DNA of 64,000 bases from a virus. Made by a program: the position numbers and the translations under genes. This document shows positions 1-42,600 of this stretch, in pieces. Under the pieces are notes generated by a model. That model was not told where the DNA came from, searched no databases, and worked only from the letters and a program-made list of their open reading frames with translations. Where the stretch lies: positions 64,001 through 128,000 of IMG/VR virus record IMGVR_UViG_3300032285_001268. The stretch is one strand, 5' to 3'. How positions within the stretch are numbered: position 1 is the stretch's first letter; every line of letters begins with the position of its first letter.

Positions 1-411
1 GGTAAGTCCGTTATCTCCGCCGGCAGCATCATTGTCTAATTTCTGCTTCTTAAGCTGTAGATCTATCATTTTTAGCTTCTTATCTAACTTGGCTGTTTTA
101 GCTTGAATAGCATTGCCTAGCATACTAGCGGCTACTTCAAACAGACGTCCGCTGTATCTAGCTTCTACGTTCATACCTAAATCCATGATATCTTCATAGG
201 CATCAACTGCACGTTTGGCTAGATCATCTAACTCAGCGTCGCTAACATCTCCCAATCCCTTTACCTGCGGTAAAGCCGCTGAAATCTTGTCAAACTCTGA
301 AATATCACGAAGTAGTGGCTTGGCCGCTTCTTGTGGTTGTTTCTTTTCTTCTTGCTTGACAATCTTTTTGCTTTCGGGCAAATTTAATAGTTCTTCTAAT
401 TTTTTAGTCAT
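1..411 (-). CDS. Partial conserved phage protein (MTKKLEELLNLP...), helical; possibly terminase small subunit-like; runs off the window start
   Basis: Not in ORF track. ATG at 411, open frame of 137 codons to the window edge; directly downstream of gp4; TAAGTA 5 nt upstream of ATG. Function is inferred from context only. Confidence 0.6.
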   Translation of the reverse strand, partial: MTKKLEELLNLPESKKIVKQEEKKQPQEAAKPLLRDISEFDKISAALPQVKGLGDVSDAELDDLAKRAVDAYEDIMDLGMNVEARYSGRLFEVAASMLGNAIQAKTAKLDKKLKMIDLQLKKQKLDNDAAGGDNGLT

Positions 412-2966: not shown

Positions 2967-5900
2967 TTATTTTCCGCCCAAGCCTTTAATGGCTCCGGTG
3001 TTTTCTAAACGCAACGGTATGTAAATAAATTCTACTGCTTTAACAGGTTCAATTGCTATGTCAAGATGCAATTCGTTACGATCAATTCTTGCAGGTGTGT
3101 TGTTGCTAGTGTCACACACAACTAAGTAATCGTAAATGGCACGCTGACCTACTAATTCTAACATTAGGCTTTCTGCTGCCTGCTTAATTTCATTACGAGT
3201 AATTGTATCGTTTGGTTCAAACACATATGGTTTTGCCAATCTGTCAAGCTGTCTACGTAGATAAACAACTAAACGTGCTACGTTGATACGATCTAATGAA
3301 CTTGCAACTAGCTGACGTGTTTTTTGTCCGTAAGCCACTAAACCTACACCTGTTAAGTATGTAATTGGGTTTACGTTGTTTAATTGCAATGTATCACGTT
3401 GTCCTGTGTTTAATGCTACTGCATTAAATTCTCCAGTTTGTCCATCAACATATCCAACTGAGCTAGCGTTAGTAATACCACCACGACGTACACCAGCTGG
3501 TGCAAACCAAGGATAACTTACGTTGTCATTTAATGCAATAGTACGTAACATCATGTGGCTCGGTGGAACAACAATGTTGTTACCTAACAAGTCTGTTGAG
3601 TAGCCCCATGGATAGTAAATTCCGATATATGCATCTGTAGTTACTAGTCCTTCTTCGCTGTCAGTAACTGCGCTATTAACGTTCTGTGCCCAGTTGCCTA
3701 GTGTAGTTGCATCTGGTTTTAAACGTGCTGGAGTATCAGCAACAATAAATGCTGTTAGGCCGCGATCGTAGTTTAATGATTTCAATGCTGGAGTTGTTTC
3801 AATATAACCTGGGCATGATATTAAATTAAACACACGAGATTCGTTATCACGAATTTCTTGGTTACTATTAATTGTAGCATTTAACGCTGTTACAACAACT
3901 TCACGAACTGCCTTGCGTCCAAAACTTCCTGAACCATCAGCTTGATTAGCCGCGTAGCTTACCCAACGATCTGGGAAGTATGAGCTCATTAGTTCGTTGC
4001 TATGACGTGGATTTCTGTTGCTTGTGTTGATATGATTTTTAACATATTTCTTAACATTGAATCCTGAACGACGTAGATTCCATAACAACATTCCTTTTGG
4101 AAATAATGCTGGATCTGGTGCGTCTGGATCTAAAAAGTCACTGCTTAGTAAATTTATAATAGTACTTGGTGTATCAACAGTACCATTAGTATTCCAACGT
4201 GCATCTGCAAACAAAACACCGTTTTCACTAACTTGGTCAGTCTTGTCAACTAATACCCATAATTTTGTTGTAAAATTATACTTGTAAATTACTGGGAAAT
4301 TTTCAATATCCGCAGTATCGATCCATAGATCGCCGTTAGCCAATGCAGTGCCATCGCTTTGTACAGTAGGTTGTGTTGCTGAAACAATCGGACCAGCTGG
4401 GTCAGTTGTCGAACCGCCTGCTTGATTTTGTGTGAAGTTCAAATAGCCAACCCATGTTGTACCATTGTTAACCATGATATCGATTGCGCCAGTAATGTTA
4501 GTATCATACCAGATAGTACCATCTGCGGCTGTGCTAGTTGGAGCAGAGTTGCTCACATTAGCAAATCCTAATTGTGTACCAGGTGCTACCGAACTCCATA
4601 AGCTAGCAACGTAGCTTCCGTTGGTGCCTGTTGGGCTAGAATAAAAATTAGTTGTAATGCCTGGGGTAAACAACTTACCGACTGGGCCAGTTGTTGCGTT
4701 TGGCGTTGTATCAACTAAGCGGAAGTCACCGCCTGCAATATGTGAAATTGTAATTGTATTATCAGAATTTAATGTTGCTACCAAATTTGAATTTGGTAAA
4801 GCGGCTGTAAATGCTGTTAAAAATGCCTGAGCATCTGCTGTTGCATTTCCTGTTGCTGTGAAACTAACTGTAGTAGACGCTGTTAAACTTGTGCTACCGA
4901 TCACGCTTTCTTGTACTGTAAATGCGTTAGCACCAGAAACAAATGTTGATGCTTGTACAGGAACTGATACAATAGATGCAGCACCTGCACCAGTTCTAAT
5001 GTATAATTTAAAGTTAGACAATGCTGGAGCAACTTCACCGTCATTGTATTTTACATAGATAGATCCTGTAGCTAGATTTGCACCGCCACCTGTTGGATCT
5101 AATACAGCTAATGCGCTTTGTCCGTTTGCGCTAACTGAAACTTTTTGTTCTACCCATGCACTAGTAGTTGCATTGTATTTTTTAACCACCCAATCAGCAC
5201 CAAGATTTGGCTGGGTTGTCTTAACCCAAATAGAACCAGTTGGATAACCATTTGCTGAACTTGTATTATCAGTTCTCTTGAATGTTGGAACTTGATAGTG
5301 CGGAGCAATTACTAAACTTGGAGCAAGATATGTAGTTGAAGACAATCCAACTTTTGCTACAGATGTACCGCTTAGTACAATTGAAACACCTGTTGAAAAT
5401 AAATTCAAATAACCGTTAATATTGCCTGCTGTAACACCAGTGATATTTGCGGCATTGATTGCAGTGATTAAACCAGTTAAGGTTGTTTGTCCTGTAATAG
5501 TATTACCGTTGATAACCAGTGTATCACCTGATAATAATGTTATGCTAGAATTAGGAGTTGTACCAGTCGCTGTAGGCCAACTTGCGGCCCATGCACTAGT
5601 TCCAACTTCTACCCACACACCTGCGGCACTTGCTGAGAGATATTTTTTAAAGAATAATTTTTGTAGTGTTGTAACCGCTACAATAGCGTAGTCACCAATC
5701 GCACCAACGCTTGGATTAATTGTTGTATAGGTTAATGTTGAACCATTCCAGTTAGATAATTTACTAGTATCTGTAATTACAGTAACTGATTGATTTGTAA
5801 ATGTTTGGCCGCCAGTTGTAGTAGCTGCCGCTGAATTCCATTCGAAGATACCGTATTTTGTACCTACAGTGTCTAACCAAATTGTGCCATCTGGAGGTGG

Positions 5901-27701: not shown

Positions 27702-30700
27702 TTATGATAGTAAGAAATTCATTGCTAGTGGGACGCCGTCAATTCCGCCTACAAAGTACATCTTATTGTTTACAGTAATCTGTACACCTGTAGTTGTAGA
27801 AATTGAGTTACCTGAAATGTATATTACGCCTGCTGTCAATGTATTTACGTTTAATGTGCTTCCGCCGCCACCAATTTGGCTACTAATGTAGGACTTGATT
27901 GCCTTCTGTGTAGGGACAATGTTGTCTGAGTTAGCAGTAAAATATGGATCTGTTGAAAACTGTGTGATAGTTGCGCTACCACTACCCACCGCTACTGAGC
28001 CTAACTGTAAGCTCTGTAGACCAGCTAAGTTGAATGCGTTAGCGTTCAATGTTGCAACACCTGTACTTTGTACAACTGTAAACAAGTTACCAACGTTGAA
28101 GTTACCGTCTTGGTCAGTGCTTGTAAAGAATGTACGTCCGCCGCCGAACGCAACAGTTTGTTTTGTTGAGTCAGCCGCGATAGCTGGGGTATTTGGATAA
28201 TTGGTGCTAACTTGGTTGCCTGTACCAACGTTCAAGAAGTCATGTCCAGTTAAACGAACCTGACTGTACTTCAACCTTAATGTTGCCGTCGCATTGTGCG
28301 CAGGTGCTGGTGTTGAGCCAGCCGCAGTAAACGATGGATTAATTTGGAACTGAGCAGTATATGGAGCAAGTCCGCTGCCGCCCGTTGGTAGAATATTTGT
28401 GATAGCTACTAGCTTGTAGTAGTTAGGATCGCCTGCAAATGTTATGTTACTACCAGGTGTTGGAGTTGTGTAAATTCCAGACACGTTGATGTAACTTCCT
28501 AACTGATACAAATCAGAGTAACCATTACCTGTTACTGATACGTTACTTACTGTTGCGTAGCTAGTACCTCTATTGGTAAATGTTGGATTAGCCAATACGC
28601 CAGTACCTCTACGTACAATAAAGTTTGTAGTAAATGTTGCACCAGGTGTTGCAGTACCGGTAGTTGTTGTTAAGGCAAATACTGGACTTGCGGCTGTAGC
28701 ATTAGCGTAAGTATCTGTAATTTGAATACTTGTAGAGCTGTTTACTTTGCCCACATAGTAGGTTGTACCAGTAGAGTAGCTACCAATACTACCGCCTGTG
28801 AATGTGCCAGTAACTACGATAGCCTGTCCAACATAGTAAGTACCTGCTGTTACAGTTAGTGTACCTACTAGATCAGCAATTACCACTGAAGCAATAATAC
28901 TTGTTGGCGATGTTGCGCTTTGGTTTGGATCAACTACAGATACTACTGGAGTTGTTGTATATCCGCTACCTGGCTCAACTATACGCCATTCAGTAATTAA
29001 ACCGCCGGCAATTTTTACACGACCTTGTGCAGTTGGACCAGTTACGATACTATTAGCAGTAGTGCTACCAGTTGTAAATGCTACCCATAGTGGGTTTCCG
29101 CCTGGGTTACCAAATACAGAGAATGGCCATGTGTTGCTTGTGGTCAATGTCTGTTTAGTCCATGTGATACCGTCTTCTGATGTTGCCGCAGTTGCAGTTT
29201 GACCAGCTGTTGAGTTCCATGAACCGCCCTGTGTGCTTAGTGTAGCCACAGGAACTAGTGTAGAACTTGTACTTAATGTTACTTGGTTGCTGTTGATGCT
29301 AGCAATGTAGTAGGTTGTACCTGATTGTAATCCGCCAAATACTGAACCAAATACTGAAGTCCAACTTGCGACTGATGTTGTCAATGCTAGTGGACTGCTA
29401 CCGTAAGCTGAACCAAGTGTTACTTGTCCGCTTGTTGGTATTGTTAGTACGTAGTAGGTTGCACCGCTAACTAGACCAGCTAAGTTGTATGCACCGCTAG
29501 TAGCATAAGCAGTAATTGTTGTACTTGCTGTCTGTACTGGAAGACCTGAAACTGTATAGCTTATAGCAGTTGTTGGAACACCTGATACGCTTTCTGTTGC
29601 TGGAACATAGGCGTTTGTTGGAGTGCCCGATGTTACTTGGTTCAATGCGTAGGTACCTTGAGCGCCAGCTGTGGTCAATGTAACTGCACCACTTAGCGCA
29701 CCAATTAAGTTTTTGCTGATAGTAATTATACTACCATTGATACCGGTAACTAGTGATCCACCTTGTATTACAGCACCAGTACCGTCACTGATAATCTGTC
29801 CAACTACTACTGATGCAATAGTACCAGTTGTAAATGTGCTCAATGTTATTGTATTAGTACCTGTTGTACCTGTACCAGTTGCGGCAGCCACAGTTGCTAC
29901 TGTACTTGTAGATTGTGTTACAATGTATGAACCGTATGTTACTGAACCACCATATAGGTATTCAGCATTAGCTAGACCAGTTGTACCTGATTGAGTAGTC
30001 AATGTTGGAACAACGCAAGCTGAAACGTTACCAGCAACAGGAGTTGTACCTGTACCGCCAGTGTTGTTGTATACTTGGATTGTAATTACAGTGTTACTTG
30101 TGATAGCTGTTACTGTTACTACACTTGGTGATCCACCAAATATTGCGCCAGTGCCACTGGTTGCTTGTATCCATGAACCAACTTGAACATAACGTAGGTC
30201 AAATGCTGAGCCACCTGTTAGTGTTGCTACCCACGGACTTGCCGATGTTCCAGCTCCACTAATTGCGCTAACTGCCACTGTACCACCGCCAGCTGTAATG
30301 TTGCTGAAAGTTGGAGTTGCAATTGAACCAAATGGTTGTGCTGTCATTGGTGCGTATAGTGCATATAAACCAGGACCGCTTACTGCCTGAACGTTTAAGG
30401 ATGCATTTAGGTTACCAACTAGCGGTGAGCTAATTGTCACTGTGCTTGCGCTTATGTTAATTGCTGTGATTGTAACGCCAGCAAGCAATCCGCTATTAGT
30501 ACCGTTGACTAAATGATTTCCTATTGATATTGAATTAATAGTACCTGTTGTAAAGCCACTTACTGTTAGTACGTTAGATCCTGTATAACCAAAGAATGTT
30601 GCAGTAGCAAGAATTGTGTTAGTATTAGTTGTTTGACCAACAATGTATGTTCCTACTGGAACAACTGCTGAAGCAGTTCCAGATAATTGTTGACCTGCTG

Positions 30701-33700
30701 ACAAGCCTGAGCTTGTTGCGCCAGCATTTAGGTAAACTGTGCTTACGTTAGCCACTATACCTGCAACTGGAGTTTGACCGCCAGTTACTGTGTATGTAAG
30801 TACAGTTCCGCTTGTGATACTTGTTACTACCACGCTTGTTGGTTCACCTTGATATAATGAACCAGTAGTACCTGCTACAGTTGATGTTGTAGCTGTGATA
30901 GTCATACCTACCATGTAACCGCTTGTATTTGCTACAGTTAATGTAGCTGTCCAAGGACCAGTACCTGTAATACTGCTCACAGTACCTGTAGTTGATAATA
31001 CTGGAGTTGTGAATGTTCCAGATACAACTGAACCTGTATTAATTGTACTGATAGTTGAAGCATTCGGATAAACACCGGTTCCAGATACAATCATACCTGT
31101 TGCCAATGTACCAGTTACTGCGGTAGTTGGGGTTAAAACGTTGCCGATTGCACCACCGGTTCCTAATCCAGTTGGGCCAACACCGTTTGAAATAAATCCA
31201 GTAACGCTTGCTTGGTTCCACTGTCCGCCTGCGGTAAATGTCCATGAGCCTACACCGTTGGTCACTGTGAATGGTGAACCGTTATAGCTTGTTGCAACTA
31301 CAATCTGATTAGTACCAGTATTGTTTGTCAATACATAGTATGGATATCCTGCTTGTAATCCGCCTAGTGAAGCGCCGACTAAACTTGTCCATGCTCCTGC
31401 ACCGTTAGCTAGTGAAACTACAGGAGTTAAACTTGCACTGGTAGACAATGTTACGTTTGATCCACTTACAGAAGCAATGTAGTATGTTTGACCTGATGTT
31501 AATCCGCCAAATACTGTACCTGCAACACCTGTCCAATATCCAGCCGCATTACTTTGTGTAATTGCGCCCGAGCTTGGAGCAAGACCAACTGTAATAGTAC
31601 TTGCTGTTCCAGTAATTGTTGTTGATGCAACTGTCTGGCTTGTGCTCACATACCATGTTGAACCTGCGCCACTTCCTGAAATGTTTTGTGTAATATAAGT
31701 ACCAGTAACTACACCAGTTCCTGTTAACACCATACCAACTGTGATTGTTCCTGAACCAACAGTACCAACTGTTAGTACATAACCACTAATTGAACTGGTC
31801 AACATGCTGGCAGTTGCCGAGTTAGTTGCTTGGATATAGTAGGTTGTTCCTGATGTTACACCAGTACCCATTGATGCACCTGCAGAACTTGTCCATGCAC
31901 CTGCGGCATTGCTTACTGACGCATTAGAGCCGCCAAACGATGTAGAAACAGTTACGTTAGAACCTTGGATGCCTGTAATATAGTAAGTTGAACCAGAGTT
32001 CAATCCGCCAAATGATCCACCTGCAACCACAGTCATTGAACCAGTGGCTGTTGATAAGGTAGTGTTTGCACCAGCATACGCACCGCTAATTGACAACTGT
32101 GTTGCGCTGATAATTTCTGTAATGTAATATGTAGTTCCAGAACTAATACCACCAAAACCTGTTCCTGAGAACACAATTGGTTCGCCTACAACCATACCAG
32201 TAGTTGATCCTAATGTGATTGCATTTTGCGTACCAGTAATAGTTGTTGATGAGACTGCAAAGTTAACGCTAGTCTGCCATGTTGAACCAGTACCTGAACC
32301 GCTGATGTTAGCAGTGATATAAGTTAATGGGCTAGTTACTAGACCTTGCTGTGTTAATGAACCTGTTGTGTTGTTTGCATAAGTTACAGAACTTGTGCTT
32401 GCACCAGTTACTACGAATGTACCGTTATAGCCAGCTGGAACAACGCCACTGACAACAATAGTTTGACCAATTACAAACGGTGTTGAACCTTGTGCGCTGA
32501 ATGTTAAAATAGCTGAAGTACCTGTACCAGTTGCACCTGTAATAGTAATTGCTTGTGGTGTTACAACGCCAGTTCCGCTTAGAGCCATACCAACTGAAAT
32601 TGTACCTGACGCTAGTGTTCCAACTGTTAACACACCTGACCCGTTAATGCTTGAACCAGTCATCGATGCTGTTGCGTTAGTTGTAGCTGTTGCGGCACTT
32701 GGAGTTTGCGTTACTGCTGTAAACACAATTGGTTCGCCTACTGCTAGTCCTGCTGTACTGCTTAATTGTAGCAAGTTATTTGCACCTGATGCAAATAGCA
32801 ATGTAGGTGTTTGTGTTGTTGCTGTGAAAACCACTGACTCGTTTACCACTAATCCAGTACCTGAACTTAGATATAACAAGTTACCAGTACTTGATGTAGC
32901 TAGTAGTGTAGGTGTTTGTGTAGCAGTACCAAAAACAACTGATTGACCTTGTAAAATACCTGTAGGTGAACTCAAAGTTGCTAGGTTTGTACCGGCTGCT
33001 GTTGCAGTTAAAGTTGGTGTGTAGGTTGTACCAACGTTGAATACTATTGGAGATCCAAGTGATATACCTGTTGAATTATTAAGTTGTATTGAAACACCAG
33101 CTGACGATGTTGTGCTTATAGTACCAGTTTGTGTTACTGCTGTTGGAATAAATGACTGTCCAACTGCAACACCACTAGTGCTTGACACCGTGACTACGCT
33201 GTTTGTTCCAGTAATTGTTGTTGAGCTAACAGATTGGCTGATACTTACTACCCATGATAGTCCACCGCCAGATACAATATATGTACCTGCAACTACACCA
33301 GTACCAGTTAATACCATACCTACAGTAATTGTGCCCGAACCAACTGAACCAACAGTTAGTGTTGTTCCACTAATTGAAGAAGTGTTCATTACTGCTGGAG
33401 TTGAAACTACTGTTCCTGTAACGCCTGGAGTTTGTGTAACTGCGCTTGGTACAAGAGTTTCGCCTACTGACAAACCTACTGTACTGCTTAGTGTTACCAA
33501 GTTCGAACCTGCTGTGGTTGCAGAAATAGTTGGTGCTAATGAGAATCCAGTAGCTAAGAATAAACCTTGTCCATAACGTACTTTGCCCCATGTTTGTGTA
33601 ACTGGTAGGCCTGATACGCTTTGTGTCCATGTTGTACCATTTAATGAGTATGCAACAATGTTACCAGTTTCTGCAACTGCTACAAAACGTCCACGACCGT

Positions 33701-36700
33701 AGGCAACAGATGTCCATAATTGACTTGATGGAAGAGTTGCTGATACCCACGATGTTCCGTTGGTGCTGTATGCGGCTTGGCTGCTTGCAGTAGTATTACC
33801 TGCGATTGCTACCCATATACCGTTTCCGTATGCAACACCGCACCATGGTGCTGATGTTGGTAGTCCACCTGAACTTAGTGTCCATGATGTTCCGTTGTTG
33901 CTTGAATAGGCTACGTTAGTAGTTCCTGTTGCAACAGCTTGCCATACACCGTTACCATAACCAACAGCTGACCATGTACTTGATGCTGGAAGATTTCCGC
34001 CACCAGTCCATGTAGTACCGTTTGTACTTACTGCGTTTACGTTAGTGCCAGTTGCTACGGCAATCCATGCACCGTTACCGGCTGCGACTGCTGTCCATGA
34101 TTGACTGCTTGGCAATGCGCCGCCTGCTGTCCATGTTGAACCGTTAAAGCTGTACTGTGTTGCTGTGCCGCTTGAAGGAATTGCAACATATACACCGCCT
34201 GCACCTGTACCTGTATAGGTAAAGTTTGTGATTGTACCTGCACTTGGTGTTGATCCAATGTTTGTTACAGTTACAGTGATGTTGTTTGCTGATGTGCCAC
34301 CTAGGCTTGTGCCTGCGATAGTTAATGTATTACCAATCGCATATCCTGAACCGGCACTGGCTAAGGTAACTGAATAAGCGTTACCTGTACGTGCAACAGT
34401 AAATGTTGCGGCTGATCCTGCACCACCGCTTGCGGCAATTGATGAATAAGTTGCTACGATGTCAGTATAGGCTGCGTCAATCCATGAACCTGATTGTTGT
34501 GTCACAGCACTTGGAGTAAATCCTGGGCTAGCATAAACAACTCTTGGTTCAATGATGTATGTTGAAGTGGTATCCATTGAGTTAACAATAGCTGTGCCTG
34601 GAACAGCATGATCCCAACCAGCCGCATTGATAATCATTGTTGATGCTGTTTGGTTGCTTACTGTTACTGGATTACCGCCTGGGGTTGTAGCTACTGAGAA
34701 TTGAGTGCTTAGTAAACCTTGTGGTAGAACATAGTACAACTGAGCTGTAAATAAACCGCCGATGGTCGTACCAGTCATGTACAAAGGCATGCCTGAATAT
34801 AAGCTGCCTGTACTTGGCACTACGATACCATTTTGAGCGCCGGTAATAGTTACTAGGCTATTGTAGTTACCAACAGTTTGGCTAATGTTAAGGTTATAAC
34901 TAATACCAGTCATTGCGATACTAGATGCAGACTGCGCAGGAGTTACATAGTATGTTCCAGCGCCGCTGGTTCCAGTACCTAATGCAGTAATAACTGTACC
35001 ACTACCAACACCTAATCCACTTACTACCATACCAACTGAAATTGCGCCAGTTACTGCACTTGCAGTTAGCACTGTTGGAGTTGCTGTAATTGTTGTAGAT
35101 GTTTGTGTTACTGTGGTATTAATTGTCCAAGTACTGCTTGAGCTTGTACCTGTACCTGTTAGTAAACCTGTAATATATGCACCAGCTGGAATTGTACCGC
35201 CACTTAGTACTTGACCAACTACTAGACCTGCGCCTGTAGGAGTTGATGTTACTGTTAGTGTTGTACCGCTAATGCTGCCTGTAAATGTTACTGCTGTACC
35301 TTGAGCAATCGCTCCAGTAAAGCTAGCTGAGTTTACACTGGTAATGTATGTGTTTGCAGTTACCCCTAGGCCGCCAAGAACTGCGCCAGCGGCTGGTGTT
35401 CCTGTTACTGTAGGCATTGACAGCAATGTTCCATTAATAAAACCACTTGATGAAAATGTGCTATTAATAGTTTGTGTTGCTGTGATAGTTGCTACACTTT
35501 CTTTAGCAACGTTGGCTAATTTACTACCTGCATTGTAACCTACAATGTAACCTGTTTGTCCAGCGCCTGTGCCTGCTGTAACAATAATTCTCATGCCTAG
35601 ATAAGCGTTACTGATCGCTTGATCAGTTGCGGCAATGGTCATTGATGTTGATGTTCCAGACTGTCCAGCATTGGCTACAGATGCGTAAGTTGTGCCTGGT
35701 GAAAATACTCGTGTTTCAAATACGGCATTATCACGGAATTCATTTCCAACAGTTACAGCACCATAACCTGCACCGCTGATTGAGTAGCTGGCAGTATTGT
35801 AGTTAGAACCTGCGTTTAGATATTCAAAACGCCAAATATTGTTTACACCATCAGTTAGTGTATTAGTGATCAGTGCTTGATTATAACGATTATTAATCTG
35901 TACAGTCAATGGTGATTCTGTTGAGTCAACACCTTCTGCTAGTACACCGTATGTGCCGTATGAGCTGTTACCGTTAGTAGCACGAATCTTACCACCTGCT
36001 TCTGCTAGATAACCAGAGTATGCGTAGTATGAGAACACTGATACTAGTTCAGCAAGAGCGTTTGGACCATAAATCCACGATCCGATACCATCTGAAAGAA
36101 CTGTTGTAAAGTCGTTAGCAACAATAGAACGGTTACCGCCATTGTGCAATGTTCCGTCAACTTTCATACCAACGCAACCTGTACCAAACATGGTTACGTT
36201 TTGTGGATATGGTGAACGTGAGTTGATCCATACACGGCTATCAGCTGGTCCCCAACCTGGATCTAAACTTACGTATGCACCAGCTGTTGGACGTTTTGTA
36301 CCGTAGCTATTTGCAGAACTCAATGTTCCTGTTAGGCCCTGTAGTGTACAGTTACGTAAACCTGTGCCGTTGCGTACTAAGAACATGTTCTGTGTTAGTG
36401 ATCCTAATACAGCATTAGTATATAATTGAGCCGCTTGCAATGTTTTGTAGTTACCAGTGTATACGATGTCGTATTGAATTGCTTTGATTGTAAATTCTAC
36501 GTCGCGCTGGCATAGTGCAGTTGGGTAATACATGGTTACTGTACATGTTCCAGATGCGCTTGTCCACGATGCAGGAGAACCGCCTTGCTGTAGAGACACT
36601 GTAATAGTTGTGCCGTTAACAATTTGTGTAACATAATAAATTGTTCCAGCAACAATTCCACCAAATGTTGTTCCGCTGAACACTACACGCATGTTCACCG

Positions 36701-39587
36701 CAAAGTTTGCGCTACTACCAACAGTGATATTTGTACCACTAGCTGTTGCTGTTACTGTAGATGTGTAAGTAGAATTGATATAGGCAATTGCTTCTGCTTT
36801 CAAGAATGCTAAGTTTTCTGTTAAGATTGCTACAGCATCGTAGTTTGCTTGTGTTTGTGTTTGAGTGTTTGTACCTGTTAGGGTAGGTGCACTGCCTGTT
36901 GAATTAACATAATAGTTAACATAGGCATTTAAGTTTGTAAACAAACCTTGAACTTGTGTTACTACTGTGCTGTTACTTGCTGGGCGTGTTGTAACCTGTG
37001 CTACCGAGTTACCTGTACTTGGAGTAACAGTGGCATTGGTTAGCAAGTTAGACATGATACCGCTTAATCTTGTCATAGTTGCAACTGTTGCGGCCACATC
37101 ATATTGATATGCTGTTCCAGCTGGAGCAGGTTGAATATTTGTCGAACGTAGTTCGTCACCAACTACAGATGTGTTTTGTGGAATAATGATCGGCAATACT
37201 TCGTAGTATGTACCTGTCTTAGTATTGATTGTGTAGTTAGGAATTACTACTGCTGGAATGTTAGTACTGCTTTGTGCTGTTAGAGCACTAGTAATTACAC
37301 CCATCAAGTTAGTTAATAAAGTCGATGCTCCAGTTTCTGATACCTGTGTAGCGTCTGAAATTCTAGTAACACTTGACTGATACGTAGTTGTTGGTGCTAG
37401 ATTTTGAATAATTCTTAAAATTACTGCCAATACTTGATTGTAGCTGGCAACGTCTTGTAGATACTGACCTGACAACAAGGTATAGGTACCTGTTGTTGTT
37501 GGGTTACTACCTGTCAATGCGTTAACATAGGCCTGGGCCGCTGCCACAGTCTTTTGATTGCCACCGTGTGACAAGTCGTAGGCCAGTGCATCAACTACAA
37601 AACCAATATCACGTGAACACTTGGTTGTATTATAGGTAAAGCTAGCCCAAATGCCGGTATTAAGGGCGATCTGTGCATTGATCCATGCGATAACTTCAGC
37701 TTGGATATAGCTACGATTACGTGTTAATAGGTTTGTTGCGGCCGGGAATTGTGCGCCCTGTTCAATTTGATATGTTGCATAACGAATTGACTGCCAAGGT
37801 TTATCTACACTTGTACCAAACGCTGGAGCAGGACTGTTAGTGCCTGTTGATGTGCTAACATAGTAGACTTGGTTAACAACACCCCAATATGTCCAGTTTG
37901 GTAAACCAGATGCGCTTACAGTTAGCACTTGTCCTGCTGTACCGATTGGTAAGCGTGTAGGACCTGCTCCACCGTAGTAGACCATGTCGCCTTGTGTTGT
38001 TAGTACAGATGTTGATGTACCTTGTGCCATCAAGTTCCAATAGGTACCAGTTGAATCATTAGCTGGACTATTGCCCGAAGCAGAAGTATGGCCTAGAATA
38101 CAGACATAGGTGCTTGGACCGTAGAATACAGTATCACCTAACACGTATGCTGTTCCGCTAGCCCATGTTGTTGCAATACCAGTGTAGGTAAATGTGCTGA
38201 TTGCGCCAGTGCTTACGCCGGTGATTGTAATGGTAATATCGTTAAACGGTGTTGTACCGCCAACACTTGTACCTAAAATTTTGATAGTATTTGAACCAGC
38301 AGTTGCTGAATAGCCTGTACCGTTGGCTGTCTTAGTTACTGTGTAGTTTGTACCACTTGTGGCTACAGTAAATTGTGCGCCATTTCCAGAACCAGTTACG
38401 TTAGTAGTAGTTACGCCTGTAAATGTCTGAGCAGTTGCTAACCAGCGGAAACCACTGTTTAATCTTGACCAGTATGCTGATGCTGTTGCAGGATTTTGAT
38501 TTGTACCATCTGCTGTGGCCACATAAGTATAGCCACCAACAGTTACAACGTTACCAACTTGGTAAGCTGTTGCACTTGACCATGCACCGATATAGGTAAA
38601 TCCAGATGTAAATAGAGCCCAATTTGATCCACCGTCTGTAGATGGAGTAATGTTGGTATTAACTGATGTTGCAATATAAACGAATCCACCGTAGGTAACT
38701 AGGTCACCGTTTTGATAAGTTGTTGAACTGCTCCAGGTATTGAAGTATTGTAGACCTTCAATGAATTTTGTAAAATTACTAGTCGAGAATGTAGCAGAAC
38801 TTGTGTGGTTTGTTGTACAAATCCAAAGATCTGCACCGTACTTAACTACGTCGTTGGCCTTATAGCGTACTGAACTTCCACTCCATGCGCCGATATAGTT
38901 GAAACCTTTGTGCAGATAATCCCACTTTGATTGATCGTTTTCTAAACCAAGTGTAGCAGTTCCAGCTGAAGTATGTGCAAGATTACAAATGTATAATATA
39001 CCACCGTAGCGTACTACATCGTTGACACGATATTTTGTAGACGTAGTCCAGTCAACAGTCCATAGTAGACCATCTGAAAATACATCCCAGCTACTTTGAT
39101 CGTTTTCTAATCCTAGAGTTGTAGTGGCAGCTGATGTATGTCCAGTTTTACAAACATAAGTTTCAGCACCGTATTTTACTACGTCTTTAGCCTTGTATCG
39201 AGTAGAAGTATTCCAATTACCTACCCAGTTAAAACTGTTGGCAAATACTGTCCACTTTGAAAAATCGTTTTCTAATCCTAACGCACTAGTTGAAGCCGAT
39301 GTGTGAGTAGTATTACACAAATAAACTACACCACCGTATTTTACTAGGTCGTTTAGTTTATAATATGTGCTAGTTGCCCATGCACCAGCCCAGGCTAAAC
39401 CGTCAGCTGTTAACTGCCAATTGCCAGATGCTAAGTCTGTACTAAAGTCTGCCGCGGCAGTGTGTCCAGTTACGCAAAGGAATAGTTTACCGCCTTGACG
39501 AACTACGTCATCTTTAACGTAAACTGTACTTGTAGTCCAAGTACCTTTCCAAATAAAGCGTATTCTACCTAATTTAAATTCAGCCAT
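27702..39587 (-). CDS. Giant virion fibre/appendage protein (3961 aa): 8 CBM5/12-like repeats, helical C.RD repeats, beta-helix, beta-propeller, nested Thr/Gly modules
   Basis: Uninterrupted 11.9 kb ORF; W..ST.Y...D.V.YGG..Y.C...HTS repeats; propeller repeats W..VAYGNG.W.A; paralogous to 39665-45589. Confidence 0.85.
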   Translation of the reverse strand: MAEFKLGRIRFIWKGTWTTSTVYVKDDVVRQGGKLFLCVTGHTAAADFSTDLASGNWQLTADGLAWAGAWATSTYYKLNDLVKYGGVVYLCNTTHTSASTSALGLENDFSKWTVFANSFNWVGNWNTSTRYKAKDVVKYGAETYVCKTGHTSAATTTLGLENDQSSWDVFSDGLLWTVDWTTSTKYRVNDVVRYGGILYICNLAHTSAGTATLGLENDQSKWDYLHKGFNYIGAWSGSSVRYKANDVVKYGADLWICTTNHTSSATFSTSNFTKFIEGLQYFNTWSSSTTYQNGDLVTYGGFVYIATSVNTNITPSTDGGSNWALFTSGFTYIGAWSSATAYQVGNVVTVGGYTYVATADGTNQNPATASAYWSRLNSGFRWLATAQTFTGVTTTNVTGSGNGAQFTVATSGTNYTVTKTANGTGYSATAGSNTIKILGTSVGGTTPFNDITITITGVSTGAISTFTYTGIATTWASGTAYVLGDTVFYGPSTYVCILGHTSASGNSPANDSTGTYWNLMAQGTSTSVLTTQGDMVYYGGAGPTRLPIGTAGQVLTVSASGLPNWTYWGVVNQVYYVSTSTGTNSPAPAFGTSVDKPWQSIRYATYQIEQGAQFPAATNLLTRNRSYIQAEVIAWINAQIALNTGIWASFTYNTTKCSRDIGFVVDALAYDLSHGGNQKTVAAAQAYVNALTGSNPTTTGTYTLLSGQYLQDVASYNQVLAVILRIIQNLAPTTTYQSSVTRISDATQVSETGASTLLTNLMGVITSALTAQSSTNIPAVVIPNYTINTKTGTYYEVLPIIIPQNTSVVGDELRSTNIQPAPAGTAYQYDVAATVATMTRLSGIMSNLLTNATVTPSTGNSVAQVTTRPASNSTVVTQVQGLFTNLNAYVNYYVNSTGSAPTLTGTNTQTQTQANYDAVAILTENLAFLKAEAIAYINSTYTSTVTATASGTNITVGSSANFAVNMRVVFSGTTFGGIVAGTIYYVTQIVNGTTITVSLQQGGSPASWTSASGTCTVTMYYPTALCQRDVEFTIKAIQYDIVYTGNYKTLQAAQLYTNAVLGSLTQNMFLVRNGTGLRNCTLQGLTGTLSSANSYGTKRPTAGAYVSLDPGWGPADSRVWINSRSPYPQNVTMFGTGCVGMKVDGTLHNGGNRSIVANDFTTVLSDGIGSWIYGPNALAELVSVFSYYAYSGYLAEAGGKIRATNGNSSYGTYGVLAEGVDSTESPLTVQINNRYNQALITNTLTDGVNNIWRFEYLNAGSNYNTASYSISGAGYGAVTVGNEFRDNAVFETRVFSPGTTYASVANAGQSGTSTSMTIAATDQAISNAYLGMRIIVTAGTGAGQTGYIVGYNAGSKLANVAKESVATITATQTINSTFSSSGFINGTLLSMPTVTGTPAAGAVLGGLGVTANTYITSVNSASFTGAIAQGTAVTFTGSISGTTLTVTSTPTGAGLVVGQVLSGGTIPAGAYITGLLTGTGTSSSSTWTINTTVTQTSTTITATPTVLTASAVTGAISVGMVVSGLGVGSGTVITALGTGTSGAGTYYVTPAQSASSIAMTGISYNLNISQTVGNYNSLVTITGAQNGIVVPSTGSLYSGMPLYMTGTTIGGLFTAQLYYVLPQGLLSTQFSVATTPGGNPVTVSNQTASTMIINAAGWDHAVPGTAIVNSMDTTSTYIIEPRVVYASPGFTPSAVTQQSGSWIDAAYTDIVATYSSIAASGGAGSAATFTVARTGNAYSVTLASAGSGYAIGNTLTIAGTSLGGTSANNITVTVTNIGSTPSAGTITNFTYTGTGAGGVYVAIPSSGTATQYSFNGSTWTAGGALPSSQSWTAVAAGNGAWIAVATGTNVNAVSTNGTTWTGGGNLPASSTWSAVGYGNGVWQAVATGTTNVAYSSNNGTSWTLSSGGLPTSAPWCGVAYGNGIWVAIAGNTTASSQAAYSTNGTSWVSATLPSSQLWTSVAYGRGRFVAVAETGNIVAYSLNGTTWTQSVSGLPVTQTWGKVRYGQGLFLATGFSLAPTISATTAGSNLVTLSSTVGLSVGETLVPSAVTQTPGVTGTVVSTPAVMNTSSISGTTLTVGSVGSGTITVGMVLTGTGVVAGTYIVSGGGLSWVVSISQSVSSTTITGTNSVVTVSSTSGVAVGQSFIPTAVTQTGTISTTSSAGVSIQLNNSTGISLGSPIVFNVGTTYTPTLTATAAGTNLATLSSPTGILQGQSVVFGTATQTPTLLATSSTGNLLYLSSGTGLVVNESVVFTATTQTPTLLFASGANNLLQLSSTAGLAVGEPIVFTAVTQTPSAATATTNATASMTGSSINGSGVLTVGTLASGTISVGMALSGTGVVTPQAITITGATGTGTSAILTFSAQGSTPFVIGQTIVVSGVVPAGYNGTFVVTGASTSSVTYANNTTGSLTQQGLVTSPLTYITANISGSGTGSTWQTSVNFAVSSTTITGTQNAITLGSTTGMVVGEPIVFSGTGFGGISSGTTYYITEIISATQLSISGAYAGANTTLSTATGSMTVVAGGSFGGLNSGSTYYITGIQGSNVTVSTSFGGSNASVSNAAGAWTSSAGASMGTGVTSGTTYYIQATNSATASMLTSSISGYVLTVGTVGSGTITVGMVLTGTGVVTGTYITQNISGSGAGSTWYVSTSQTVASTTITGTASTITVGLAPSSGAITQSNAAGYWTGVAGTVFGGLTSGQTYYIASVSGSNVTLSTSASLTPVVSLANGAGAWTSLVGASLGGLQAGYPYYVLTNNTGTNQIVVATSYNGSPFTVTNGVGSWTFTAGGQWNQASVTGFISNGVGPTGLGTGGAIGNVLTPTTAVTGTLATGMIVSGTGVYPNASTISTINTGSVVSGTFTTPVLSTTGTVSSITGTGPWTATLTVANTSGYMVGMTITATTSTVAGTTGSLYQGEPTSVVVTSITSGTVLTYTVTGGQTPVAGIVANVSTVYLNAGATSSGLSAGQQLSGTASAVVPVGTYIVGQTTNTNTILATATFFGYTGSNVLTVSGFTTGTINSISIGNHLVNGTNSGLLAGVTITAINISASTVTISSPLVGNLNASLNVQAVSGPGLYALYAPMTAQPFGSIATPTFSNITAGGGTVAVSAISGAGTSASPWVATLTGGSAFDLRYVQVGSWIQATSGTGAIFGGSPSVVTVTAITSNTVITIQVYNNTGGTGTTPVAGNVSACVVPTLTTQSGTTGLANAEYLYGGSVTYGSYIVTQSTSTVATVAAATGTGTTGTNTITLSTFTTGTIASVVVGQIISDGTGAVIQGGSLVTGINGSIITISKNLIGALSGAVTLTTAGAQGTYALNQVTSGTPTNAYVPATESVSGVPTTAISYTVSGLPVQTASTTITAYATSGAYNLAGLVSGATYYVLTIPTSGQVTLGSAYGSSPLALTTSVASWTSVFGSVFGGLQSGTTYYIASINSNQVTLSTSSTLVPVATLSTQGGSWNSTAGQTATAATSEDGITWTKQTLTTSNTWPFSVFGNPGGNPLWVAFTTGSTTANSIVTGPTAQGRVKIAGGLITEWRIVEPGSGYTTTPVVSVVDPNQSATSPTSIIASVVIADLVGTLTVTAGTYYVGQAIVVTGTFTGGSIGSYSTGTTYYVGKVNSSTSIQITDTYANATAASPVFALTTTTGTATPGATFTTNFIVRRGTGVLANPTFTNRGTSYATVSNVSVTGNGYSDLYQLGSYINVSGIYTTPTPGSNITFAGDPNYYKLVAITNILPTGGSGLAPYTAQFQINPSFTAAGSTPAPAHNATATLRLKYSQVRLTGHDFLNVGTGNQVSTNYPNTPAIAADSTKQTVAFGGGRTFFTSTDQDGNFNVGNLFTVVQSTGVATLNANAFNLAGLQSLQLGSVAVGSGSATITQFSTDPYFTANSDNIVPTQKAIKSYISSQIGGGGSTLNVNTLTAGVIYISGNSISTTTGVQITVNNKMYFVGGIDGVPLAMNFLLS

Positions 39588-39664: not shown

Positions 39665-42600
39665 TTACGTGGTCCTATTGTTATAAATGTTAGAACCATT
39701 TCTTGCAGTTTGAGAGTTAGTGATCGCTTGTTCAGCAAAACCACCGCTTGAAGCACTACTTGGAGCACTCTTAAACCCATGTGCAAAGAAAGCCATTGCT
39801 AACATATTCCCATCTACACCTGAAGGTACGTTATTGCCTTTACCTTGAAAACTCATTTTATTTGCTATCTTAATTGTACCAGCAACTGTTGAATATATCT
39901 TAAAAGGTCCGACTGCAACTGTACCTGCAATCAATGTACCTGTCTGTGCGTTTGAACCACCACCTGATACGTTTCTTGCCACATACGTTTTAATTGCTCG
40001 TTGTGTAGGTACAACTGAATCAGAATTTGCTGTAAAATAACTGTCAGTACTAAATTGATTAATAACAATTTGATTAGTACCTAAACTTACACCACCTAAA
40101 CTCAATGTGCTTAGTCCTGACAAATTAAACAAACTAGCACTAACAGTAACAATACCAGTTGCCTGTTGAACTGCAAACAAGTTACCAACTTTAAAGTTAC
40201 CGTCTTGGTCAGTACTTGTTTGGAATACTCGACCTAGATTGTTTTCAACAATCTGCTGATAACCCACTGCGGTAGTTATGTCAGTGTTTGGATAATTTGT
40301 TGTTGCTTGATTTCCAGTACCAATTAACAAGAAGTCATGTCCAGTTAAACGACACTGACTATATTTTTGTCTAATGCTTACTGATGTATTGTGTATCGAC
40401 GCAACCGAGTTATCTATATCTGGTGCGATTCCCAGGGTGTAATTACTATTCCCCAATGACGTTGCTGAGACAACTTTATAGGTTGTTGAGTTTCCACTAA
40501 TAGTTAATGCAGAACCTAAACCAGGACTTGATCCAATTCCTCCAACTATTAGAGTTGAACCAGATTGATAAATGTCTGCAAATCCGTTACCTGATACAAC
40601 TACAGTTGTAGTTGTTGTCTGATATCCAGATCCTCTATTAGTCCACGAAGGATTGCCTAGTACACCTTTGCCAGTTCTAACTACAAAAGATGCAACTGTT
40701 CCGCCATTTAGTGACGGATTTGGATCATAAATGGTCACTGATGGTGCTGAAGCATATCCGCTACCTGGTTCCCATAATTTAATTAGGGCAATTTTACTCG
40801 ATGTAATAACGACTCTACCTAGAGCAGTTGCGCCAGTTACAATATTTGATCCCACTGTAGTCGCAGTTGACGCACTTCCAGCTACTGCGATCCATAGAGG
40901 AGTTGCACTGCCTGCGGCTGAGGAATTACCAAATTGTATGTCTGACCACAATGAGCTTGCTGACATTGTGCGAATCGTCCAATTGACACCGTCTTGACTA
41001 GTTGCGGCTATAGCCGAGCCTGATGCCACTGCAAAGAATAATCCTTGTCCGTAAGCAACGGCACTCCATGTAGTATTAGCTGGGAGTGTCGATGCAGTCC
41101 ATGTAATACCATCTAATGAATATGCGGCAGCCGTGCTGTTAGTTGCTATTGCTACATAACGTCCGTTACCGTAGGCCATGTCAATCCATTGACTACTTGA
41201 TGGTAGTGTGCTGGCTGTCCATGTTTGTCCATTTGTACTATAGGCTGCGGCTGTCGATGCACTTCCGCCTCCTGCTATTGCTACAAAATAACCAGGACCA
41301 GAACCGTATGCTATTGCTGACCATGTTGTTGAACTTGGAAGACTGTAGGCTGTCATAGTACTTGTTCCATCGCCAACAATCACTGTAGAAGTGCCTGTGG
41401 AAACTGCGGCAAATGTACCATTACCGTAAGTTAATGAATTAAAGTTATTAGTCGATCCTGTGTTTGCACCCAAGTTCCAATTGATACCATCTGTACTATA
41501 AGCTGTTACAGAATTTGAACTTGTAAAATAATTTCCTGTATTCTGATTTGAAATTGCCACAAACGTATTGTTGGCAAAATAAACATCAGTCCATACTGCT
41601 GTAGGCATTCCTACACCAAGACTCCAACTTGTTCCGTCTGCTGAATAAGCTACTAGACCGTCTGTCGAAACTGTAACATACTTGTTGTTGCCGTATGTGG
41701 CTGCACTCCATTTACCAGAAGTTATAGTAGTTGCAGTAGCAGTAAAACCTGGACTTGTAAATGTAACACGCGGTTCAATCAAATAGTTTGTAGTTGAATC
41801 TAGTACTGAAGCAATAGTTGTTCCTGGAATAGCATGATCCCATCCTGGTGAGTTTGTGCTTTCTGTATAGATTGTTGCAACCTTTGTACCAGAGTTGTAT
41901 GATTGAATGTATCCATATTGTCCTACACCTGTACCGCTAACGATCACTAATCGCAATCCAGTATAGTTTGTAGATGTATTTTGATCATTGCTGGCCAATG
42001 TTATTGATGTAGTGTTACCTGCCTGTGCTTGGTTACCTGCGGTAATGTATCCGTATCCGCCTGCGGCTGCTGTTGAACCTGTAACACGAACTTCAAATAC
42101 TGCGTTATCACGGAATTCATCAGCAACTGTGGCAGCGCCTAAACCAGCACCGTTAACTGTATATGATGCTGATGTATAGTTTTGTCCGGCATTGCTATAT
42201 TCAAATTTTAAGATTTTATTCTGTGCCTGTCCTGCAAATACTGAGGCAACCTGTGCAGGTTTTGTTTGGTTGTTGACAACGGCACTTAATGGTGTTTCAG
42301 ATAAATCATATCCTTCGCTAACAACACCATATACACCATATGAGCTGTTACCGTTGGTAGCACGAATCTTACCACCATTTTCTGCAAAGTATCCTGAATA
42401 TCCATAATATGAGAACACTGATACTAATTCAGTTAAGGCATTTGTACCGGTTACCCACGCACCAATACCGTCTGATAAAATGCAAGTAAAATCATTTGCA
42501 ACGATTGATTTGTTTCCAGAGGCATGTAGTGTTCCATCGACTTTCATACCGACACAGCCTATGCCAAACATGGTTACGTTTTGTATGTATGGTGATCTTG

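What the first reader, a model, noticed from the sequence alone, without database searches (positions are those of the whole stretch)
29202..33540. Matryoshka protein: seven split modules nested inside one another, inserted in a single propeller blade
Seen in sequence: the 1974-aa paralogue reads YGQGLFFAVASGSAIAATSQDGVNW continuously. The 3961-aa protein reads YGQGLFLATGF-[about 1,445 aa]-QTATAATSEDGITW. The insert has seven N-half motifs (e.g. NLVTLSSTVGLSVGETLVP, NLLQLSSTAGLAVGEPIVF) in a row, mostly joined by the linker (A/T)(V/T)TQTP. Seven C-half motifs follow (FGG(L/I).SG.TYYI...VT(L/V)S...W...AG). Only the central pair (GEPIVFSGTG-FGGISSGTTYYI) is contiguous, and the same module occurs whole at about 36540-36780. 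Inference: the order is N1..N7-C7..C1. Each copy sits in the same loop of the previous one, so the chain runs out and back as a rigid monomeric stalk of split domains projecting from the propeller, with further modules budding from side loops. This differs from ordinary tandem repeats and is a way to lengthen an appendage recursively.
Basis: partly seen in the sequence, partly recalled or inferred. Interest (0 to 1): 0.85.

Follow-up and report, generated by a model that had tools for sequence, protein, structure and literature searches.

The report
Self-nested barrel stalk in phage fibre
A 3,961-residue tail-fibre-type protein of a T4-like phage carries, in one loop of a propeller-like domain, seven copies of a small beta-barrel inserted one inside the next, so the chain runs out through seven first halves and back through seven second halves. 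Recursion of this kind is published for cyanobacterial RNA polymerase, but I found no published case in a phage fibre.

Summary
Between residues 2015 and 3463 of the 3,961-aa protein (window 27702-39587, minus strand), profile searches find seven N-halves and then seven C-halves. Neither kind occurs in the other's territory, and only the central pair is contiguous.

The nested reading is well supported, but through relatives rather than the window's own sequence:
- A two-level N-N-C-C array from a relative folds with AlphaFold2 at pLDDT 92 and pTM 0.83.
- One contiguous 82-residue barrel, the E1 FCCH domain, superimposes on the inner contiguous copy and also on outer-N plus outer-C.
- Across 45 full-length homologues, N and C counts are matched (383 versus 373, r = 0.93). 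Their order is a balanced bracket word far beyond shuffles, with depth from 0 to 13.

One correction: the "TQTP linker" is the first strand of the next barrel. Each half has three strands, and the insertion site is the beta3-beta4 loop.

The window's own nest could not be folded (pLDDT 35). "Rigid", "monomeric" and "stalk" remain inference.

The closest published analogue is the recursively inserted HABAS/SBHM domains of cyanobacterial RNA polymerase Si3, six levels deep and of a different fold. Earlier unpublished notes of this scan describe similar nests in other phage genomes. I rate it a new variant of a known kind.

The parts
27702..39587 (-). Gene of the 3961-aa tail-fibre-type protein (P0001)
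   Evidence: ORF list and translation. PHROG phrog_9851 'tail fiber protein', E 7e-169. CBM_5_12 repeats at the N-terminus.
33543..33575 (-). Host blade strand where the chain leaves the propeller-like repeat (residues 2005-2015)
   Evidence: Motif position. The paralogue reads through at this point.
33435..33536 (-). N1: first three strands of barrel 1 (residues 2018-2051)
   Evidence: N35 HMM, E 2e-10
33204..33383 (-). Side module of type B (residues 2069-2128) in the loop of barrel 1, before barrel 2
   Evidence: B HMM, E 2e-20
33132..33239 (-). N2 (residues 2117-2152)
   Evidence: N35 HMM, E 1e-7
33030..33134 (-). N3 (residues 2152-2186)
   Evidence: N35 HMM, E 1e-5
32919..33026 (-). N4 (residues 2188-2223)
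   Evidence: N35 HMM, E 5e-10
32814..32921 (-). N5 (residues 2223-2258)
   Evidence: N35 HMM, E 2e-12
32709..32816 (-). N6 (residues 2258-2293)
   Evidence: N35 HMM, E 3e-13
32229..32654 (-). Side module of type B (residues 2312-2453). It is itself split by a third module type, at about 2345-2420.
   Evidence: B HMM hits 2312-2369 (profile columns 2-59) and 2421-2453 (columns 33-65). Sequence read.
32160..32255 (-). N7 (residues 2445-2476), the innermost N-half, contiguous with C7
   Evidence: N35 HMM, E 4e-12
32019..32156 (-). C7 (residues 2478-2523)
   Evidence: C HMM, E 5e-18
31875..32012 (-). C6 (residues 2526-2571)
   Evidence: C HMM, E 6e-19
31518..31871 (-). C5 (residues 2573-2690), with a type-B side module (2597-2661) after its first strand
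   Evidence: Ca HMM at 2576, E 2e-3. B HMM, E 7e-24.
31374..31511 (-). C4 (residues 2693-2738)
   Evidence: C HMM, E 1e-16
31227..31367 (-). C3 (residues 2741-2787)
   Evidence: C HMM, E 3e-20
29490..31220 (-). Large side branch of about 577 aa (residues 2790-3366) in the loop of barrel 2, after barrel 3 closes. It holds B-like and other repeated modules.
   Evidence: Sequence. B HMM at 2810-2877. The orthologue P0004 is 256 aa shorter overall, and the gap between its C3 and C2 is about 255 aa shorter here.
29346..29486 (-). C2 (residues 3368-3414)
   Evidence: C HMM, E 2e-18
29202..29339 (-). C1 (residues 3417-3462), which closes the outermost barrel
   Evidence: C HMM, E 7e-19
29160..29201 (-). 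Return to the host blade (residues 3463-3476), with an Asp-box-like S-x-D-G-x-x-W motif
   Evidence: Motif position. Aligns with paralogue residues 1527-1537.
36528..36770 (-). Whole, uninterrupted copy of the barrel (residues 940-1020) in a helical region of the same protein. Many relatives carry a two-level nest at this site.
   Evidence: N35 and C HMM hits. Two-level nests of relatives.
40979..41053 (-). Uninterrupted version of the same blade in the 1974-aa paralogue (residues 1513-1537): nest depth 0

Best explanation
The 1,447-residue insert is a recursive self-insertion of one small six-stranded beta-barrel of about 82 residues.

Anatomy:
- Strands 1-3 make up each N-half. The supposed TQTP linker is strand 1.
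- Strands 4-6 make up each C-half.
- The next copy sits in the loop between strands 3 and 4.
- N_i and C_i therefore fold together into barrel i, and barrel i+1 is enclosed in its beta3-beta4 loop. This runs seven deep. The outermost barrel sits in a hairpin of one blade of an Asp-box-type propeller-like repeat.
- Other small modules and a side branch of about 577 aa share some of the loops, so the polypeptide is a tree rather than a string.

Geometry (inferred). Each half has an odd number of antiparallel strands. The chain ends of a barrel should therefore lie at one pole and the insertion loop at the other. If so, the nest makes a doubly connected, out-and-back stack of barrels that holds the side modules away from the fibre body.

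Function (inferred from gene context and from analogues). It most likely acts as a spacer or display arm for host-surface binding on a tail-fibre-type virion protein.

Shown versus inferred:
- Shown: the order of the halves; the matched numbers in homologues; the fold and split topology in a relative's two-level nest.
- Inferred: that the same holds for all seven levels in the window; the stack geometry; the function.
For: 1. Order in the window. Seven N-halves are followed by seven C-halves, with no mixing.

2. Structure of a relative's two-level nest.
- AlphaFold2 on L055:6677-7201, with a 50-sequence alignment, gave pLDDT 92.2 and pTM 0.83.
- The strand pattern is 3+3 in the outer part (9-17, 22-25, 36-40 / 136-143, 146-150, 169-172). 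The same 3+3 pattern occurs in the inner part (44-52, 57-60, 71-76 / 87-93, 98-102, 115-123).

3. The outer halves form one barrel.
- The contiguous FCCH barrel of ubiquitin E1 (about 82 aa) aligns to model range 6..175 with only 74-80 aligned residues. The rmsd is 2.0-2.7 A and Z is 8.0-8.9, in 35 entries.
- It also aligns to the inner copy at 42..124, with Z 7.8.
- So outer-N plus outer-C make one barrel around the inner one.

4. Link to the window. The window's N3-N4 and C4-C3 strings align column for column with the N-N and C-C parts of these two-level nests.

5. Homologues.
- In 45 full-length proteins, N = 383 and C = 373, with r = 0.93 per protein.
- Only 72 of 756 tokens are unmatched in a bracket parse. 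Shuffles give 196.7 +/- 17.4, with a minimum of 138 in 5000. The reversed order gives 464.
- Depth at the blade site is 0, 2, 3, 5, 6-7 or 7, with N = C +/- 1.
- P0012 has a clean 13-deep nest at another site.
- P0016, read by eye, is a balanced branched nest.

6. Matched gain at another site. The site of the window's single barrel at 940-1020 holds a two-level nest in many relatives, so N and C were gained together.

7. A second predicted model. BFVD entry A0A6J7WHK8_2, a homologous stretch, matches at TM 0.76 with 46% identity.

8. Context. Both paralogues hit PHROG 'tail fiber protein'. Tail sheath and portal genes lie nearby.
Against: - The window's own nest (levels 3-7) gave a useless model: pLDDT 35 with a 4-sequence alignment. 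The topology in the window therefore rests on homology with the two-level nests.
- Structural ranges from the aligner give only the first and last aligned residue. The split alignment is deduced from 74-80 aligned residues spanning 170, not read residue by residue.
- Within-nest similarity of N-halves does not significantly mirror that of C-halves. For P0001, r = 0.25 and 861 of 5040 permutations do as well. Other proteins were mostly not significant.
- About 10% of tokens remain unmatched in the automatic parse. I attribute these to detection misses. That was checked by eye only for P0016, and by a dedicated model for C5 of P0001.
- Stack geometry, rigidity and oligomeric state were not measured.
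Confidence: 0.83

Rival explanations
1. Two independent tandem arrays. The N-units form their own repetitive beta structure with their sequence neighbours (for example a solenoid, or a trimeric beta-helix of a fibre shaft). The C-units form a separate array. The equal numbers are coincidental.
For: - The arrays look like ordinary tandem repeats, with regular periods of about 35 and about 48 aa.
- The window's own nest could not be modelled.
- The mirror-similarity tests were not significant.
Against: - N and C numbers match at depths from 2 to 13 in many lineages.
- The innermost N and C are always contiguous and form a whole barrel that also occurs alone.
- In the confident two-level model, the outer halves superimpose together on a contiguous barrel.
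Confidence: 0.05
2. Same barrels, but closed between chains. In an oligomeric fibre, the N-halves of one chain pair with the C-halves of a neighbouring chain (domain swapping). The array would then zip subunits together rather than form a monomeric hairpin.
For: - Phage fibres are usually oligomers (general knowledge).
- Recursively inserted HABAS domains of RNA polymerase Si3 sometimes exchange secondary-structure elements (PMC11515920).
- Only a single chain was modelled here.
Against: - The single-chain model closes both barrels intramolecularly, with pTM 0.83.
- C_(i+1) runs into C_i with almost no linker, and N_i runs directly into strand 1 of N_(i+1). This fits closure within one chain.
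- The host is a propeller-like domain rather than a coiled shaft.
Confidence: 0.08
3. The nested topology is right, but the barrels do not form an extended stalk. They fold back into a compact or flexible cluster whose role is to display variable surfaces (or to carry glycans) rather than to provide length.
For: - No coordinates or inter-barrel angles could be read.
- Many side modules and a branch of about 577 aa crowd the loops.
- The sequence is very rich in Ser, Thr and Gly.
Against: - The 3+3 antiparallel strand count puts the chain ends and the insertion loop at opposite poles (inference).
- pTM 0.83 indicates one defined orientation between two successive barrels.
- P0012 has 13 levels with no side modules at all, which is hard to explain other than by length.
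Confidence: 0.2

Closest known systems
Si3 insertion of cyanobacterial RNA polymerase beta' (RpoC2): recursively inserted HABAS / sandwich-barrel hybrid motif domains (PMC11515920; PMC13114784)
   Same: One small beta domain is inserted into copies of itself over several levels, with branching. Sequence halves close last-in-first-out. It projects from a host domain.
   Different: - The fold differs: a HABAS/SBHM open sheet there, against a six-stranded closed barrel of the EF-Tu-domain-2 / FCCH / I-domain type here.
- Six levels and nine domains are reported there. Here there are seven levels, and 13 in relative P0012.
- That case is a cellular enzyme, this one a virion fibre.
- Here the depth varies widely between close relatives.
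Split domains of RTX adhesins that project ligand-binding domains from the fibre axis (Aeromonas hydrophila AhLap and others; PMC12077191)
   Same: A small beta domain of a long surface fibre is split by an inserted domain, which is thereby displayed sideways. This suggests the side modules here are the functional cargo.
   Different: - Those are a single level, with a different fold inserted into the host domain and no self-recursion.
- They are bacterial adhesins, not phage proteins.
Phage endosialidases (K1F endoNF, phi92; PDB 3ju4, 4hiz): a beta-barrel domain emerging from a six-bladed propeller
   Same: - A barrel is inserted in a propeller of a phage tail-spike or fibre protein.
- phi92 residues 255-340 match the barrel structurally: Z 6.7, rmsd 2.3 A, 72 residues aligned.
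- BFVD lists endosialidase-barrel proteins among the weaker matches.
   Different: - One barrel only, with no nesting.
- No Pfam endosialidase family is detected in the window's barrel or propeller-like region, so homology is open.
Single inserted barrels of the same fold: P22 coat protein I-domain (PDB 2m5s) and the FCCH domain of ubiquitin E1
   Same: - A six-stranded barrel with adjacent chain ends, used as an insertion domain.
- Structural Z is 5.7-8.9.
- Weak sequence similarity of the nest profile to the I-domain, E 0.039.
   Different: They occur once and are not hosts for further copies. The sequence relation is not significant.

Membership tests
Recursive self-insertion architecture (as in RNA polymerase Si3) | A domain is interrupted by a copy of the same domain family, so that halves close last-in-first-out | tested here: met
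   Seven N then seven C in the window. Balanced bracket order across homologues, against shuffles. The outer halves of a two-level nest form one barrel.
Recursive self-insertion architecture (as in RNA polymerase Si3) | More than two levels, shown structurally in this protein | tested here: inconclusive
   The model of window levels 3-7 had pLDDT 35. Only a two-level relative was modelled with confidence.
HABAS / SBHM domain family (the Si3 building block) | HABAS / sandwich-barrel hybrid fold | tested here: inconclusive
   The best structural matches are six-stranded barrels (E1 FCCH, EF-Tu domain 2, P22 I-domain). No RNA polymerase or lipoyl/biotinyl chain was among the rows listed, but an unlisted family is not excluded.
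EF-Tu domain-2-like / I-domain-like six-stranded beta-barrel fold | Six antiparallel strands forming a closed barrel of about 80 residues that superimposes on known members | tested here: met
   - E1 FCCH: Z 8.0-8.9, rmsd 2.0-2.7 A, 74-80 residues aligned.
- EF-Tu domain 2: Z 6.7-6.9.
- P22 I-domain: Z 5.7.
. Z in this range shows a shared fold, not homology.
P22 I-domain family (homology) | Significant sequence relation | tested here: inconclusive
   Nest profile against PDB sequences: 2m5s E 0.039; P22 coat 2xyy E 0.083.
Endosialidase barrel-in-propeller (Pfam End_beta_barrel / End_beta_propel) | Pfam family match of the barrel or the propeller | tested here: not met
   There were no such Pfam hits up to E 10. 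This holds for the window's whole barrel, the relative's two-level nest and the paralogue's propeller-like region. The only structural similarity is to phi92 residues 255-340.
Beta-propeller host domain | Repeated blades recognisable by sequence or structure | tested here: inconclusive
   - A periodic motif of about 45-50 aa with S-x-D-G-x-x-W, seen.
- A designed six-bladed propeller, 7onh, at E 0.0018.
- Pfam Beta-prop_HVO_0234 below threshold, E 0.081.
- The region was not modelled.
Phage tail fibre protein (PHROG phrog_9851) | Profile match | tested here: met
   P0001 E 7e-169. P0002 E 1e-169. tblastn hits to annotated cyanophage and pelagiphage tail-fibre genes at about 35% identity. The name is an annotation, not a tested function.
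CBM_5_12 (PF02839) | Pfam match above the gathering score | tested here: met
   105.8 bits over 7 stretches in P0001; 130 bits over 6 stretches in P0002. These lie at the N-terminus, outside the nest.

The most novel reading that the evidence does not exclude
Nest depth acts as an evolvable length ruler. By matched gain or loss of N- and C-halves, a single polypeptide builds a doubly connected hairpin rod of 1 to at least 13 barrels. It would not need the trimeric shafts that phage fibres normally use. Lineages would then tune reach and side-branch display by changing depth. That would be a distinct construction principle for viral appendages, and a natural template for designing length-programmable protein rods.
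Probability: 0.3. Interest if true: 0.8.

Novelty: new variant of a known kind. Interest (0 to 1): 0.68.

Why it matters
- Fibre construction. Long phage fibres are thought of as strings of domains or trimeric shafts. Here length and branching are produced by recursion of one insertion-tolerant barrel.

- Depth and spread. Depth reaches 7 in this window and 13 in a relative, beyond the six levels reported as the most complex case in a survey of 2.7 million domains (PMC13114784). The barrel family is common: 2,162 clusters at 50% identity, many of them giant proteins. It has no Pfam model.

- Annotation. Annotation pipelines that expect contiguous domains miss it, and repeat finders misread it as two unrelated tandem arrays.

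- Open questions it makes testable. How do such proteins fold co-translationally, when the outer barrel cannot close until more than 1,400 residues later? How are matched N/C numbers maintained during evolution? What do the displayed side modules bind?

Tried and rejected
- AlphaFold2 of the window's own levels 3-7 (631 aa, 4-sequence alignment) gave pLDDT 35 and pTM 0.27. It is unusable.
- I planned a fragment-complementation prediction of window N3-N4 against C4-C3, and built alignments A5 and A6 for it.
- Mirror-tree test: does similarity among N-halves track similarity among C-halves under nested pairing? It was mostly positive but not significant in 16 nests. With curated coordinates for P0001, r = 0.25 and 861 of 5040 permutations did as well.
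- Level-by-level orthology between a 7-level relative (P0021) and a shallower one (P0027, 4-5 levels detected), to see which levels were gained or lost. The sequences are too diverged, about 55% identical even outside the nest, so no clear mapping emerged.
- Megablast of the region against GenBank phages found no match.
- Pfam on the barrel and on the two-level nest found nothing meaningful.
- Foldseek against PDB on the two-domain model found nothing at E <= 0.001. The VIA alignments were needed instead.
- DNA for the closest homologue, P0003, was not available.
- A locus search with the 32-sequence alignment failed for lack of conserved columns.
- My first 22-aa N-half model under-detected N-halves, giving a spurious excess of C. 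A 36-aa model that includes strand 1 corrected this.

Full report
**What is there**

The window is the structural-gene region of a T4-like myovirus. It holds a tail sheath gene, a portal gene and virion structural proteins. Two neighbouring giant genes lie on the minus strand:
- P0001: 3961 aa, window 27702-39587.
- P0002: 1974 aa, window 39665-45589.

Both start with CBM_5_12 repeats and match the PHROG family phrog_9851, 'tail fiber protein'. Their nearest annotated relatives are tail-fibre-like genes of Synechococcus, Prochlorococcus and Pelagibacter myoviruses, at about 35% identity.

In the C-terminal third, both proteins have a periodic repeat of about 45-50 aa with an Asp-box-like S-x-D-G-x-x-W motif. 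Its sequence similarity to beta-propellers is only weak: a designed six-bladed propeller at E 0.0018, and a Pfam propeller family below threshold. 'Propeller' is therefore likely but not shown.

P0002 reads straight through one blade at residues 1513-1537. P0001 leaves the same blade after residue 2015 and returns at 3463. Profile models seeded from coordinates find the following:
- Seven N-halves, at 2029, 2130, 2165, 2201, 2236, 2271 and 2455.
- Six intact C-halves, at 2478, 2526, 2693, 2741, 3369 and 3417.
- A seventh C-half at 2573, which is interrupted after its first strand by a 65-aa side module. A model of that strand alone recovers it.

No N-half lies among the C-halves, and no C-half among the N-halves. 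Only N7 and C7 touch.

**What the unit is**

The window's own levels 3-7 did not fold, because only three relatives could be aligned (pLDDT 35). I therefore collected 50 two-level arrays of the form N-N-C-C from related viral contigs and folded one of them, L055:6677-7201.
- The model is confident: pLDDT 92.2 and pTM 0.83.
- It has twelve strands. Three are outer, six are inner and three are outer again. The outer 3+3 repeats the pattern of the inner 3+3.
- Residues 42-125 (the inner N plus inner C) superimpose on six-stranded barrels:
  - the FCCH domain of ubiquitin E1: Z 7.8
  - EF-Tu domain 2: Z 6.7
  - the P22 coat I-domain: Z 5.7
  - a barrel of the phi92 endosialidase: Z 6.7
  - inserted domains of phage tail-tube proteins: Z 7.4-7.5.

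The decisive read-out came from the second look at Foldseek's list. In 35 entries, the same contiguous E1 barrel of about 82 residues aligns to model range 6..175 with only 74-80 aligned residues, at rmsd 2.0-2.7 A and Z 8.0-8.9. An ordered alignment of about 75 residues that spans 170 residues must skip about 95, and the inner barrel occupies 84 of them. The outer N part and the outer C part therefore form one barrel of the same fold, with the inner barrel in its beta3-beta4 loop.

A separately predicted BFVD model of a 46%-identical protein has the same shape (TM 0.76).

The (A/T)(V/T)TQTP 'linker' is strand 1 of the next barrel, and each half has three strands.

**Transfer to the window**

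The window's N3-N4 string (residues 2150-2224) aligns without trouble to the N-N parts of the 49 other two-level nests. Its C4-C3 string (residues 2690-2790) aligns in the same way to their C-C parts. The conserved positions are shared. The planned direct test of complementation could not be run. For the window, the nested topology therefore rests on two things: homology with the folded nest, and the comparative evidence below.

**Comparative evidence**

A search restricted to long proteins found 44 homologues. A 36-aa N model that includes strand 1 and a 22-aa model of the first C strand have similar sensitivity. With them, the 45 full-length proteins (the 44 proteins returned, P0001 among them, plus the paralogue P0002) hold 383 N-halves and 373 C-halves, with r = 0.93 per protein.

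Read as brackets, the order is strongly nested:

| Measure | Observed | Shuffled within proteins | Order reversed |
|---|---|---|---|
| Unmatched tokens (of 756) | 72 | 196.7 +/- 17.4 (minimum 138 in 5000) | 464 |
| Summed maximum depth | 249 | 172.8 +/- 7.5 | not computed |

Further points:
- At the same blade site, the nest holds 0 (the paralogue), 2, 3, 5, 6-7 (branched) or 7 barrels, always with N = C within one detection error.
- One such mismatch, P0016, is an exactly balanced branched nest when read by eye.
- P0012 carries a clean 13-deep nest at a different host site, with no side modules.
- The site of the window's single barrel at 940-1020 carries a two-level nest in many relatives.
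- Homologues therefore do not gain or lose halves independently.
- In 142 more distant representatives, the order is still balanced beyond shuffles (256 unmatched of 1404, against 475 +/- 22). Their depth is mostly 1-3, so this window is near the deep end.
- The barrel family itself is large: 2,162 clusters at E <= 1e-3. It has no Pfam model.

**How it probably works**

This part is inference. With three antiparallel strands per half, the two chain ends of a barrel should lie at one pole and the beta3-beta4 loop at the other. Successive barrels should then stack end to end and be joined by two strands, one outgoing and one returning. The pTM of 0.83 suggests a defined orientation between neighbours.

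The window's nest also carries other modules in its loops:
- A type-B module between N1 and N2.
- A second type-B module between N6 and N7, itself split by a third module type.
- A third type-B module inside C5.
- A branch of about 577 aa after barrel 3.

The nest thus looks like an arm that displays other modules, as split domains do in RTX adhesins (PMC12077191). P0012 shows that a bare rod also exists.

How depth changes is open. Deleting a complete inner sub-nest is a single event, and tandem duplication of a sub-nest gives the branched forms that are seen. Deepening, however, needs either insertion of a whole copy into a loop or two matched duplications. My attempts to trace this history were inconclusive.

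**Comparison with what is known**

Recursive self-insertion is published for the Si3 region of cyanobacterial RNA polymerase beta'. There, nine HABAS/SBHM domains are nested, six levels deep by one count (PMC11515920; PMC13114784). The principle is the same. The fold, the protein class, the depth and the variability differ.

My literature searches found no description of such nests in phage fibres. The library does not hold most subscription journals, so this is not proof of absence.

Earlier unpublished notes of this scan report similar self-nested barrels in other phage genomes. The phenomenon is therefore recurrent in giant phage proteins rather than unique to this window.

**Verdict**

- The nested interpretation is supported in its core, through relatives. 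It is corrected in one detail and untested for rigidity, oligomeric state and function.
- It is a new variant of a known kind, of clear interest to structural and phage biologists.

Noticed in passing
P0012 residues 817-1900 (homologue; no locus fetched): A clean 13-level nest with no side modules: 13 N-units at a 35-aa period, then 13 C-units at about 49 aa. It is inserted in a helical region, not in the propeller blade. A separate two-level nest follows at 1945-2110.
   Followed up: partly
window 36528-36770 (-), and L016:6674-7201, L055:6677-7201 and others: At the site where the window's protein has one whole barrel (residues 940-1020), many relatives have a two-level nest. Depth therefore varies at a second, independent host site.
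   Followed up: partly
window 43042-43592 (-), P0002 residues about 666-849: In the paralogue, the single barrel (C-half at about 887-935) seems to have its N-half interrupted after the first strands by three type-B modules. That would be a second insertion site within the barrel.
   Followed up: no
window 32229-32654 (-), P0001 residues 2312-2453: The type-B side module is itself split (profile columns 2-59 and 33-65) by a third module type of about 60-75 aa. That third type also occurs in the N-terminal CBM repeat region of the paralogue. Other module families therefore follow the same insertion habit.
   Followed up: partly
window 29490-31220 (-), P0001 residues 2790-3366: The side branch of about 577 aa contains an internal duplication of roughly 200-250 aa, with two similar pairs of modules. 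The orthologue P0004 is about 255 aa shorter here, as if it had one copy.
   Followed up: no
window 34900-35440 (-), P0001 residues 1382-1561: There are three type-B hits just upstream of another whole barrel (N 1578-1608, C 1606-1654), and the first covers only profile columns 2-45. I did not resolve its topology.
   Followed up: no
window 33037-33576 (+): A 179-aa ORF lies antisense to the nest. It is probably an artefact of the Thr/Ser/Gly-rich coding strand and was not examined.
   Followed up: no
P0046 (2842 aa, 30 matched stretches), P0047 and P0164 (7951 aa): Metagenomic giant proteins are packed with this barrel, with up to 30 profile matches in one chain. Most are strings or shallow nests (depth 1-3).
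   Followed up: partly
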